Shown piece after piece: positions 61,045-64,000 of a stretch of 64,000 nucleotides of DNA; position 1 is the first letter of the stretch; each line of letters begins with the position of its first letter. The notes under the pieces are model-generated. The model did no database searches. It was not told the origin of the DNA and saw only the letters and a list, made by a program, of their open reading frames with translations. The position numbers and the translations under genes are program-made. Origin of the DNA: the human T2T-CHM13v2.0 reference genome, Homo sapiens; assembly GCF_009914755.1 (NCBI RefSeq), contig NC_060927.1. The stretch is one strand, 5' to 3'.

Positions 61045-61492
61045 CACCCTGGTCGATGCCTCCAAGCTTGTCCCAGGCCCTTGTCCTGGCCCCGTGGCCT
61101 ACAGGGTTTGCCCTGCTATGCATCCTCCAATGCTGGGCTTCGGATTGGCCACAGCTTGCGGATCCTGCCGTGCCAGCTTGTACCTCCACTCTCTCAATCA
61201 GATTCTGAAAGTTAAAAAGCACAGTGTCTATTTGACAAATTTGAGGAAATCGGGAACTTTGGGTGACCTAGGCTCTCTAAATGAGATGACCTATCAAATA
61301 CCAGCAGAGGAAATGCTGGACTCCTAAGCAGAATTTTTTTGGAAGACCTTGCAGATGAGGCTTACCAATTTGAGCACTATGATGTCTCCTTTGGGAATGG
61401 TGTCTTAACAATTAAACTGAGTGAAGATCTAGGAACCTATATGACAAACAGCAGACCCCAAATAAGCAAATCTGGTTATCTTCCCCATATAG
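61045..61492 (+). pseudogene. Frataxin (FXN) processed pseudogene, exons 1-4 equivalent
   Basis: Encodes [29 protein letters not shown]...[14 protein letters not shown]...[12 protein letters not shown] with no introns. Junctions at 61174/5, 61272/3 and 61395/6 give segments of 98, 121(+2) and 98(-1) nt, matching FXN exons 2-4 as recalled. TAA at 61325-61327 and two frameshifts. The 5' boundary is approximate. Confidence 0.92.
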
Positions 61493-64000
61493 CATCTGAA
61501 TAAGTTGCACTTTGTCTTCAAATCAAGTTAAAGTTTGACCTCTAGTTTGTTTTGAGCATCTCAGCTAACGAAGAACACATGATTGTGTCGGAGGCACAAT
61601 GCAGCCTGTGCAGCATGAAAACCTGAGGCCATGCAAGGAAAGATGTCCCTCATTCCTCATCTGTCTGGCTGCCAATGAAGTAGTTGTAAGAAAGTAAAAG
61701 TGAACTGCCCACAGAAAGCTCTCAGACCTACCTCCCTGGGTTATTCATTTGCACTTCCAAAGAGAACATCATGTTGACTGTGAACTGGGGAAGGCCCATA
61801 TACAGCCAGGCTGAATTCTTTGAAAACCTGGCTGGGCGCAATGGCTCACGCCTGTAATCCCAGCACTTTGGGAGGCCGAGGTGGGAGGATCATCTGAAGT
61901 CAGGAGTTTGAGACCAGCCTGGTCAACATGGTGAGACCCTGTTATCTACTATAAATACAAAAATTAGCCGGGTGTGGTGGTGGGTGCCTGTAATCCCAGC
62001 TACTCAGAAGGCTGAGGCAGGAGAATTGCTTGAACCCGGGAGATGAAGGTTGCAGTAAGCAGAGATTGCACCACTGCACTCCAGCCTGGGCGACAGAGCA
62101 AGACCTTGTCTCAAAAAAAAAAAAAAAAAAAAGAAAGAAAGAAAGAAAAAGAAAACCTAACGGTATTTGCATTTAAAAACAATTATAACCCTACTCCACT
62201 TCCAACATTGACATAATTTCATCATTTTAAGGCAGTTAATATTGTACCATTTATCATGCTGTGGTTTGTATTTCTTTGTTCAGAATGAAGTGCATGCCTC
62301 CTTCAAAACTGTAAAATAAAATATACATGCTAGTGAAATTAAACAAAATTAGCAGGTAAAGAAATATTTGCTCTATGGTTACAAAAGTCATATTTCAGAG
62401 CCAGAAAATACACATATTTTCTTTTAGAGAAAATCAGGTAATTTGCAAATCCAAATAAATAAATAAATAATAAAACCGGGCCGGGCATGATGGCTCACTC
62501 CTGTAATCCCAGGCACTTTGGGAGGCTGAGGCGGGCAGATCACTTGAGCTTGAGTTTGAGACCAGCCTGGCCAACATGGTGAAACCCCATCTCTACTAAA
62601 AATACAAAAATTAGCCGGGCATGGTGGCGGGCACCTGTAATTCCAGCTACTCAGAAGGCTGAGACAGGATAATCACTTGAACCTGGGAGGCAGAGGTTGC
62701 AGTGAGCTGAGATCCTGCCACTGCACTCCAGCCTGGGTGACAGAGCGAAACCCCATCTCAAAAAGAAAAATAAATAAATAAATAAACCAAACATTAGTAA
62801 TGTAAATTAGTAACCCCACAGGTTTAAGCAAGAGAGCTATGCTAAATTTTACACAGCTGTTTCTATAAAGATACTCACGCACAGAAAAGAAACATTTTGA
62901 AAAATATTTTCATGTTGGTTTTCTAGACAGGAAACCAGACTCATATTGCCCTAACACTTGGTTTGCATTTCATACCAGTTAAATTAAAAATTATTGTTAC
63001 TTAATTTCTCAGCAAACCAATTTTCTAATTTAGCCTTGTTCCAGATTTAATAATTTTTAAACATAAAATGTGGAGTTTTTCTGTCCTTTAATGTTTATGA
63101 GATGGTTTATTGTAGCCTTGTGGGAGCTAGCTTAAATAGATATATGTTTCTGGGATTGAAATGACTAACTTTTATAATTCTGGGGTTAAAGGACACAACG
63201 TTTTGATGAGTTTGGTACTATATTCTTTTAGGAGGTTAGCCTAGATTCTAATTTATTCAGGGGAATTCTTTACAGATACATAGTTCTCAGTTTTCGTAGT
63301 AAGACGTAGTAAGATGAAACTTTTACTTCTTTCATTACTTTCTTAATTCTTCTTTTTTTTTTTGTAACTCATCTCACCACCACAGGCCTTCTTTCGTTCT
63401 AATGCAACTGAATTATCATTACCAACTCTTAATTTATTTTTTCAAATTTTAAGTCCAGCCAGGTGCGGTGGTTCAAGCCTGTAATCCCAGCACTTTGGGA
63501 GGCTGAGACGGGTGGATCACCTGAGGTCAGGAGTTTGAGACCAGCCTGACCAACGTGGGGAAGCCCCGTCTCTGTGATCTCAGTTCACTGCAACCTCTGC
63601 CTCCCAGATTCTCTCGCCTCTGTCTCCTGAGTAGCTGGGATTGCAGGTGCGTGCCACCAAACCTGGCTAATTTTTGTATTTTTAATAGAGATGGGGTTTC
63701 GCCTGGTCCTGCTGGTCTCGAACTCCTGGCCTCAAGCGATCTGCACACCCTTGGCCTCCCAAGGTGTTGGGCTTACAGGCATGAGCAATTGCACCCAGTC
63801 ATGACCTCTAATCCAGAGCCCAGGCAGGTCACTCCACACATTCAGAGCTTCCAACCACTTTTACGGTCTACCATTTTTAACCATAATGGAAAAATCAATG
63901 GCTACCAAATCTAAGGAAAATCTCTAATGTAAAAAATTAAACAACAAAACATGGGAGGGGTAAAAAGACACTTGGAGGAAACAGCTATGCAGGAAGGAGA

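What the first reader, a model, noticed from the sequence alone, without database searches (positions are those of the whole stretch)
61045..62340. FXN retrocopy switches to non-exon-5a sequence exactly at the exon-4 boundary: fossil of an alternative or read-through (possibly FXN-TJP2) mRNA
Seen: intronless FXN homology runs through exon-2/3/4 equivalents and ends at ...TCTTCCCCATATAG (61492), matching the FXN exon-4 end TCTTCTCCATCCAG. It does not continue into exon 5a (GPKRYDWTGK). Unique non-repetitive sequence follows from 61493, is interrupted only by a later TSD-flanked Alu (61830-62150), and reaches AATAAA at 62315-62320. L1 retrocopies are made from the 3' end and truncate at the 5' end, so a 3' switch exactly on a splice junction implies the template mRNA spliced exon 4 to other exons. 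Inference from recall (unverified): ~61560-61682 (...GAGGCCATGCAAGGAAAGATGTCCCTCATTCCTCATCTGTCTGGCTGCCAATGAAGTA) resembles an upstream exon of TJP2/ZO-2, the gene downstream of FXN, and contains the open frame MQPVQHENLRPCKERCPSFLICLAANEV. If correct, this is germline fossil evidence that FXN-TJP2 read-through splicing is ancient.
Basis: partly seen in the sequence, partly recalled or inferred. Interest (0 to 1): 0.8.

Follow-up and report, generated by a model that had tools for sequence, protein, structure and literature searches.

The report
Frataxin pseudogene from alternative intron-4 transcript
This is an old, dead, intron-less copy of the frataxin gene made from a minor messenger RNA that ended on two small extra exons inside frataxin's own intron 4, not from a frataxin-TJP2 fusion message, so it is an ordinary pseudogene that happens to preserve an old alternative transcript.

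Summary
Window 61037-62325 is a decayed processed copy of FXN. Its exon-4 equivalent ends exactly at 61492, and it does not continue into exon 5a.

The sequence after 61492 is neither flanking DNA nor TJP2. Its only other home in the assembly is FXN intron 4 on C9:
- Block X1 is 71 nt and starts 773 nt past exon 4. It is bounded by AG| and |GTAAAG.
- Block X2 starts 130 nt further on, after ...CTAG|, and runs to a parent AATAAA.
- Exon 5a starts about 6.2 kb beyond that AATAAA.

The template was therefore an FXN mRNA of exons 1-4 + X1 + X2, polyadenylated inside intron 4. In the parent it reads ...SSPSS-V-stop (161 codons).

The copy's counterpart of the parent signal is AATGAA at 62284-62289.

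The three other FXN retrocopies in the genome all run from exon 4 into exon 5a.

The FXN-TJP2 reading is rejected. The "alternative mRNA fossil" reading is supported. This is a known kind of thing and of modest interest.

The parts
61037..61173 (+). Decayed equivalent of FXN exon 1 (coding part). The 5' end of the retrocopy lies at about 61037.
   Evidence: local alignment to C9 exon 1 (L023 6255-6393), 82 of 140 columns identical, score 34.2 against shuffles of 14.0 +/- 2.1 (0 of 300 reach it). Nothing upstream of 61037 aligned to the parent 5'UTR.
61174..61272 (+). Equivalent of FXN exon 2
   Evidence: matches C9:81219942-81220039; 76 of 98 aligned bases identical.
61273..61395 (+). Equivalent of FXN exon 3. 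It carries an in-frame stop and indels.
   Evidence: matches C9:81226463-81226583; 103 of 121 identical, 2 gap columns; the frame is broken after ...EEMLDS at 61327.
61396..61492 (+). Equivalent of FXN exon 4, ending exactly at the parent's exon-4 3' end
   Evidence: 82 of 97 identical to C9:81238268-81238365, with one 1-nt gap. The parent exon end ...CCATCCAG is followed by GTATGT.
61493..61564 (+). Equivalent of X1, a 71-nt exon-like block in parent intron 4 (C9:81239138-81239208)
   Evidence: 65 of 71 identical (91.5%), 1 gap. In the parent it is preceded by ...TTGTAG and followed by GTAAAG. The parent frame reads S-V-stop across the exon 4/X1 junction.
61565..61570 (+). Six bases (CTAACG) at the X1/X2 junction with no clean counterpart, so the junction is resolved only to about +/-7 nt
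   Evidence: the X2 alignment starts at 61571. The six bases match 4 of 6 with the parent's GTAAAG just 3' of X1 (read by eye).
61571..61829 (+). Equivalent of X2, first part (parent from C9:81239339)
   Evidence: colinear alignment. The whole of X2 is 302 of 370 identical, with 24 gap columns.
61830..62158 (+). Alu inserted later into the retrocopy, with its A-rich tail and the second copy of the 8-nt target-site duplication (62151-62158)
   Evidence: GAAAACCT at 61822-61829 and 62151-62158. Alu-type hits; the parent is continuous across the site.
62159..62289 (+). Equivalent of X2, second part, ending in AATGAA (62284-62289), the counterpart of the parent's AATAAA at C9:81239707-81239712
62290..62325 (+). 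Fifteen bases past the signal (62290-62304), then an A-rich stretch (62305-62325, 15 of 21 A).
   Evidence: Homology beyond 62290 is marginal (31 of 500 or 5 of 500 shuffles reach it, by scoring) and absent beyond 62355 (191 of 500 and 125 of 500). The poly(A) reading is inferred.

Best explanation
Window about 61037-62325 is an old, inactive processed pseudogene (L1-type retrocopy) of FXN. Its template was a minor FXN mRNA, not the canonical exons 1-5a message.

In that mRNA, exon 4 was spliced to a 71-nt exon (X1) lying 773 nt into intron 4. X1 was then spliced across a roughly 130-nt mini-intron to a terminal exon of about 0.4 kb (X2). X2 carries its own AATAAA, so the message was cleaved and polyadenylated inside intron 4.

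Such an mRNA encodes frataxin residues 1-160 plus one residue and then stops. The stop lies 64 nt before the X1 donor, so the spliced form is a predicted target of nonsense-mediated decay (NMD). It is a poison exon or alternative terminal exon type of isoform.

Shown here: the mapping, the exact exon 4/X1 junction, the splice-site context in the parent, the parent AATAAA at the place where clear homology ends, and the later Alu insertion.

Inferred: retrotransposition by L1, the poly(A) remnant, the age (roughly 50-90 million years), the NMD sensitivity, and whether the isoform was ever regulated rather than noise.
For: 1. The 337 nt after 61492 and the 301 nt after the Alu match nothing else in the 3.1-Gb assembly except C9:81239142-81239212, 81239338-81239584 and 81239581-81239712. 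These places are colinear and on the same strand as exons 2, 3 and 4.
2. Exon 5a is at about C9:81245943, so the blocks lie inside intron 4.
3. Parent context:
- Exon 4 ends ...CCATCCAG followed by GTATGT.
- X1 is preceded by ...TTGTAG and followed by GTAAAG.
- X2 is preceded by a pyrimidine-rich run and ...CTAG.
4. The exon 4/X1 junction in the copy has no indel.
5. The 130 nt missing between X1 and X2 is unique DNA, matching only itself in the assembly. It is therefore not a later mobile-element insertion in the parent.
6. The 772 nt between exon 4 and X1 is absent from the copy. Only Alu cross-hits were seen.
7. Clear homology ends at the parent's AATAAA, whose counterpart is AATGAA. Fifteen bases later an A-rich run follows.
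8. All 3 other FXN retrocopies run from exon 4 into exon 5a, and none of the 3 matches X1 or X2. The different 3' end is thus a property of this copy's template.
9. Print:
- Li et al. [quoted passage not shown] Per the Figure 4 legend, one of them (isoform III) has a spliced-out fragment.
- Vlasenok et al. 2026 (PMC13187750; abstract, passages and section 18) list FXN among genes with an annotated stop-carrying alternative terminal exon and tissue-specific use. Neither text gives coordinates.
Against: - The X1/X2 junction is not clean. Six bases (61565-61570) have no clear counterpart, so the donor or acceptor actually used is known only to within about 7 nt.
- No target-site duplication of the retrocopy was found. 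The test asked for 8 nt or more, exact up to 10 nt, with 1-3 mismatches allowed in longer ones.
- The poly(A) remnant is short and impure.
- Weak similarity continues to 62354. With soft scoring only 5 of 500 shuffles reach it, so the true 3' end could lie about 50 nt further on, past the AATAAA.
- I could not confirm that present-day human RNA uses exactly these junctions. There were no RNA data, the figures are not held, and the supplements were closed.
- The window's own Pfam frataxin match is below the curated cut-off. The assignment rests on nucleotide homology.
Confidence: 0.88

Rival explanations
1. Fossil of an FXN-TJP2 read-through mRNA. Exon 4 would have been spliced to an upstream exon of the next gene, TJP2.
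For: Nothing from my calls supports it. A search for FXN + TJP2 + read-through found 0 papers.
Against: All post-exon-4 sequence maps 0.77-1.35 kb past exon 4 and about 6.2 kb before exon 5a. That is inside FXN intron 4, with no other match in the assembly. I did not map TJP2's position in this assembly. That it lies beyond FXN's last exons is recalled.
Confidence: 0.01
2. The sequence after 61492 is chr3 flanking DNA, and the retrocopy simply lost its 3' part by deletion.
For: No retrocopy target-site duplication was found.
Against: The sequence is homologous to the parent locus: 91.5% identity for X1 and 81.6% for X2, with E values of 8e-19 to 8e-47.
Confidence: 0.01
3. The structure is the same, but the template was a one-off cryptic-splicing or cryptic-polyadenylation product (transcriptional noise) caught by chance. 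It was not a regular FXN isoform, so the fossil says nothing about a conserved isoform.
For: - Only 1 of 4 FXN retrocopies has this 3' end.
- A 2024 review lists four FXN transcripts, and the passages I saw describe none with intron-4 exons (PMC11202134, passages).
- The X1/X2 junction is untidy.
- Li et al. call their intron-4 isoforms rare.
Against: - The parent today still has an AG acceptor, a CAG|GTAAAG donor, a pyrimidine tract with AG, and an AATAAA followed by a GT-rich run, all in the right places.
- X1 is better preserved than X2: 65 of 71 against 302 of 370 identical (Fisher p = 0.039). This hints at constraint, but it is one small comparison.
- FXN is listed with a tissue-variable, stop-carrying alternative terminal exon, though I could not check that it is this one.
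Confidence: 0.3
4. A chimeric retrocopy made by template switching of the L1 reverse transcriptase between two separate RNAs. One would be a canonical FXN mRNA and the other an independent transcript arising in intron 4.
For: Template-switch chimeras are a known class (recalled). The six unexplained bases sit at a junction.
Against: The switch would have to fall exactly at the last base of exon 4 and the first base after an AG in the parent. The untidy junction is the X1/X2 one, not the exon 4/X1 one. Both parts come from one locus, in order and on one strand.
Confidence: 0.03

Closest known systems
Processed pseudogenes that preserve alternative splice forms of their parent gene ('genomic fossils', Shemesh et al. 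2006, PNAS 103:1364). I saw only its reference-list entry. Its content is recalled, and the paper is not held.
   Same: It is an intron-less, dead copy on another chromosome. Its exon make-up differs from the main mRNA and matches splice-site-bounded blocks in the parent's intron.
   Different: Nothing in kind. This is one more instance, for a disease gene. I found no paper naming FXN retrocopies: searches found 0 papers, and none of the 10 papers listed holds FXN.
Known minor FXN transcripts: FXN-2 (8-bp extension of exon 4, then exon 5a) and FXN-3 (exon 5b in place of 5a, C-terminus RLTWLLWLFHP). Source: PMC3794619 and PMC11202134, passages.
   Same: All diverge from the main mRNA right after exon 4 and predict a frataxin with a changed or shortened C-terminus.
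   Different: - The copy does not continue into exon 5a.
- X1 gives V-stop, not the exon-5b peptide.
- That peptide is not encoded anywhere in C9:81237838-81247900.
Poison exon or alternative terminal exon with intronic polyadenylation ('NMD escape'), for which FXN is listed as a Case III gene (Vlasenok et al. 2026, PMC13187750). Also the rare intron-4-terminated 3'-RACE isoforms II and III of Li et al. 2022 (PMC9558844).
   Same: There is a stop codon just inside an intronic exon, a donor more than 50 nt after the stop, and a poly(A) signal in the same intron.
   Different: Identity with those events is unproven. Their coordinates are in figures and supplements that I could not see. The retrocopy adds only that such an mRNA existed in the germ line long ago.

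Membership tests
Processed pseudogene (L1-mediated retrocopy) | Colinear copy of the parent's exons with the introns precisely missing, at an unlinked locus | tested here: met
   the equivalents of exons 1-4 are contiguous in the window (C3), while the parent exons are spread over about 29 kb on C9.
Processed pseudogene (L1-mediated retrocopy) | Poly(A) tail directly after the mRNA 3' end | tested here: inconclusive
   An A-rich run at 62305-62325 (15 of 21 A) begins 15 nt after the AATAAA counterpart. It is short and impure, and weak similarity to the parent may run to 62354.
Processed pseudogene (L1-mediated retrocopy) | Target-site duplications flanking the insert | tested here: inconclusive
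   One search found none of 8 nt or more under strict criteria. At about 20% expected divergence between two old copies, a short duplication could easily be missed.
Processed pseudogene (L1-mediated retrocopy) | Loss of coding capacity | tested here: met
   the frataxin frame is split over two frames, with a stop after 61327; there are indels in the exon 3 and exon 4 equivalents.
Template = alternative FXN mRNA with intron-4 terminal exons | The switch falls on the exact exon-4 3' end and on an AG-preceded block in the parent | tested here: met
Template = alternative FXN mRNA with intron-4 terminal exons | The second gap (130 nt) is bounded by GT...AG in the parent | tested here: inconclusive
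   The parent has GTAAAG...CTAG at the edges and the piece is unique DNA. Six bases in the copy at the junction are unexplained.
Template = alternative FXN mRNA with intron-4 terminal exons | A poly(A) signal in the parent where homology ends | tested here: met
   AATAAA at C9:81239707-81239712, followed by a GT-rich run. Homology beyond it is marginal.
Template = alternative FXN mRNA with intron-4 terminal exons | The same junctions are seen in RNA of living cells | not testable with these tools
   No RNA data are on hand.
FXN-TJP2 read-through transcript | The 3' part maps to TJP2 exons beyond the end of FXN | tested here: not met
   It maps inside FXN intron 4, before exon 5a.
Known FXN-2 / FXN-3 isoforms | An 8-bp extension then exon 5a, or exon 5b encoding RLTWLLWLFHP | tested here: not met
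   There is no exon 5a in the window. X1 reads V-stop, and the peptide is absent from the fetched parent stretch.

The most novel reading that the evidence does not exclude
X1/X2 may be an ancient and still active poison-exon and intronic-polyadenylation module of FXN, and not a fossil of noise.
- It already worked when this copy was made, roughly 50-90 million years ago.
- X1 has been kept nearly unchanged in the parent since then (65 of 71 bases).
- It may divert a tissue-dependent share of FXN pre-mRNA into a non-productive message encoding 161 residues.

If so, it is the FXN event listed by Vlasenok et al. 2026. It would then be a candidate target for splice-blocking or poly(A)-site-blocking oligonucleotides to raise full-length frataxin in Friedreich ataxia.
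Probability: 0.2. Interest if true: 0.6.

Novelty: new member of a known kind. Interest (0 to 1): 0.3.

Why it matters
The exciting reading, an ancient FXN-TJP2 read-through, is wrong. What remains is an unannotated FXN processed pseudogene: the hub's RefSeq table for the window has no row for it. It shows that an FXN mRNA ending on two small exons in intron 4 existed in the germ line tens of millions of years ago.

This gives a cheap, testable pointer. If X1/X2 and their splice and poly(A) sites are conserved and still used, FXN has an old non-productive splicing and polyadenylation branch. That would be relevant to efforts to raise frataxin output. If they are not, it is just one more pseudogene.

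Tried and rejected
- TJP2 origin: rejected by the mapping.
- Flanking DNA after a deletion: rejected.
Its only Pfam hit is a noise-level DUF5346 match, E 0.082, 13.5 bits against a cut-off of 27.
- AATAAA at 62315-62320 as the signal: it aligns to no signal in the parent.
- Extension of the retrocopy to the A-rich tract at 62452-62477: there is no homology beyond 62355 (191 of 500 and 125 of 500 shuffles reach the score).
- First local alignment of the tail against a wide parent stretch: only low-complexity hits.
- Target-site duplication search: nothing found.
- Direct BLAST of the 5' part against parent exon 1: nothing found. A softer alignment found it.
- Rfam on 60500-62900: 0 matches.
- Pfam on the two longest minus-strand ORFs (112 and 76 aa): 0 families.
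- 130-nt piece as a mobile-element insertion: rejected, because it is unique in the assembly.
- Literature searches:
  - Frataxin + processed pseudogene: 0 papers.
  - Frataxin + pseudogene: 62 papers, 15 listed, 1 opened and irrelevant.
  - Frataxin + intronic polyadenylation: 1 paper, judged irrelevant from its title and abstract start only, not opened.
  - FXN with retrocopy terms: none of the 10 papers listed holds FXN.
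Full report
**Observation.** The window holds a decayed, intron-less copy of FXN.
- Window 61193-61272, 61272-61395 and 61395-61488 match three separate places on contig C9 of the same assembly: 81219960-81220039, 81226462-81226583 and 81238267-81238361, at 84-85% identity.
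- These places are frataxin exons by the Pfam frataxin profile PF01491. They are parent exons 2, 3 and 4.
- A softer alignment also finds the CpG-rich exon 1 at 61037-61173. Of 140 columns, 82 are identical. The score is 34.2 against 14.0 +/- 2.1 in shuffles, and 0 of 300 shuffles reach it.
- The window's own Pfam signal is weak and below the curated cut-off: 19.7 bits against 21.3, and 17.5 bits. The assignment therefore rests on the DNA matches.
- The copy is dead. The frataxin frame is split between two frames with a stop after 61327, and the exon 3 and exon 4 equivalents carry indels.

**The boundary.**
- Parent exon 4 (C9:81238268-81238365) ends ...CCATCCAG and is followed by GTATGT.
- The copy aligns to it up to 61492 with no indel at the end.
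- BLAST of window 60000-64000 against C9:81238000-81247900, which holds exon 5a, gives no exon-5a hit. It gives only Alu cross-hits and the blocks described next.

**Where the rest comes from.**
- The 337 bases after 61492 have exactly two candidate homes in the 3.1-Gb assembly: the window itself and FXN intron 4. The same holds for the stretch after the Alu.
- X1 is window 61493-61564, matching C9:81239138-81239208 with 65 of 71 bases identical.
- X2 is window 61571-61829 plus 62159-62289, matching C9:81239339-81239712 with 302 of 370 identical and 24 gap columns.
- Exon 5a begins at about C9:81245943. X1 therefore starts 773 nt into intron 4, and X2 ends about 6.2 kb before exon 5a.
- In the parent, X1 is preceded by ...TTGTAG and followed by GTAAAG. 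X2 is preceded by a pyrimidine-rich run and ...CTAG.
- The 772 nt between exon 4 and X1 (which holds two Alus in the parent) is missing from the copy, and so is the 130 nt between X1 and X2.
- The 130-nt piece matches only itself in the assembly. It is therefore not a later insertion into the parent.
- One blemish remains. Six bases (61565-61570) at the X1/X2 junction have no clean counterpart. By eye they match 4 of 6 with the parent's GTAAAG. A GT donor 7 nt further downstream would fit the lengths (17 against 16 nt). This junction is therefore known only to about +/-7 nt.

**The 3' end.**
- The parent has AATAAA at C9:81239707-81239712, followed by a GT-rich run. The copy has AATGAA at 62284-62289.
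- Fifteen bases later comes an A-rich run, 62305-62325, with 15 of 21 A. I read this as the poly(A) remnant. This is an inference.
- Similarity past 62290 is marginal. For 62328-62354, 31 of 500 shuffles reach the score. With softer scoring over 62295-62354, 5 of 500 do.
- Beyond 62355 there is no similarity (191 of 500 and 125 of 500).
- No target-site duplication of the retrocopy was found. In so old a copy this is inconclusive.

**Later events.** The Alu at 61830-62150 is flanked by GAAAACCT on both sides. The parent has one uninterrupted counterpart, so the Alu entered the retrocopy after it was made.

**What the template encoded.**
- In the parent, exon 4 plus X1 reads ...SSPSS-V-stop. 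That is 160 frataxin residues plus one, without the exon-5a-encoded C-terminal part.
- The stop ends at base 7 of the 71-nt X1, 64 nt before its donor. By the 50-nt rule, as stated in PMC13187750, the X1-X2 spliced form should be sensitive to nonsense-mediated decay (NMD). This is an inference.

**Other copies.** The frataxin profile finds three more retrocopies: C9:137166697-137167017, C14:72269010-72269312 and C5:131117388-131117582. All 3 run from exon 4 into exon 5a, and none of the 3 matches X1 or X2. The window's copy is thus 1 of 4 with this 3' end.

**Age and constraint.**
- X2 should be neutral on both sides. Its K2P distance is 0.214.
- With recalled neutral rates of 1.2-2.2e-9 per site per year, this gives roughly 50-90 million years. 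This is an inference and is not cross-checked in other species.
- X1 is better kept than X2 (Fisher p = 0.039) and than exons 2-4 pooled (261 of 316 identical, p = 0.07). This is suggestive only: one small block and several comparisons.

- The stretch likened to a TJP2 exon (61560-61682) is X2, inside FXN.
- The ORF at 61599 has a parent counterpart that stops after 4 codons.
- There are no Rfam matches on either strand of 60500-62900.
- There are no Pfam families for the two longest minus-strand ORFs.

**Print.**
- The described minor FXN transcripts are an 8-bp extension of exon 4 and exon 5b (PMC3794619 and PMC11202134, passages). Neither fits. The exon-5b peptide quoted there is not encoded in C9:81237838-81247900.
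- Li et al. [quoted passage not shown] The Figure 4 legend says isoform III has a spliced-out fragment. No coordinates are in the text.
- Vlasenok et al. 2026 (PMC13187750; abstract, passages and section 18) list FXN as Case III. That means an annotated stop-carrying alternative terminal exon with an unannotated poison-exon junction. The range of psi1 is 0.37, the range of tau is 0.31 and their correlation is -0.75.
- I found no paper on FXN retrocopies or on FXN-TJP2 read-through. These searches cover only the held library.
- That retrocopies can preserve alternative splice forms is an established idea (Shemesh et al. 2006). I saw only its reference entry, and its content is recalled.

**Verdict.** This is an ordinary processed pseudogene that happens to record an alternative FXN mRNA ending in intron 4. 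The TJP2 part, on which the high interest rested, does not.

**Limits.** I had no other mammalian genome, no RNA data and no annotation of C9. Conservation, present-day use and annotation status of X1/X2 therefore remain open.

Noticed in passing
L012 (G000:C9:137165197-137168517), match at C9:137166697-137167017, minus strand: A younger FXN retrocopy, 93-96% identical to parent exons 2-4 and 89% over 1.3 kb of exon 5a and 3'UTR. It keeps a 224-codon stop-free frame through the whole frataxin domain. It is 5'-truncated within exon 1 and lacks the original start codon.
   Followed up: partly
L013 (C14:72269010-72269312, minus) and L014 (C5:131117388-131117582, plus): Two more FXN retrocopies of the canonical mRNA. 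The C14 copy is 5'-truncated within exon 3, 86-93% identical, with 1 TGA. The C5 copy is much older, 67% identical over the exon 5a region, with 1 TAA.
   Followed up: partly
window 61493-61564 / C9:81239138-81239208: X1 is 91.5% identical between copy and parent. That is higher than the coding exons (82.6% pooled) and X2 (81.6%), and may be a hint of constraint on this intronic block in FXN (Fisher p = 0.039 and 0.07).
   Followed up: partly
window 62452-62789: A second Alu (about 62478-62780) sits in an (AAAT)n-like A-rich tract, with similar A-rich sequence on both sides. It lies outside the retrocopy as far as homology shows.
   Followed up: no
window 60737-60942: A partial Alu in minus orientation lies about 100 bp upstream of the retrocopy's 5' end.
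   Followed up: no
window 60123-60196 and L022 7863-7940 (FXN intron 1/2 region): A short simple-repeat tract in the window cross-matches a simple repeat near FXN exon 2 at many offsets. It looks like low-complexity coincidence.
   Followed up: no
window 61037-62325: The hub's RefSeq table for this window lists two other pseudogenes (UBA52P4, RNU1-96P) but has no row for this FXN retrocopy. It appears unannotated there.
   Followed up: no
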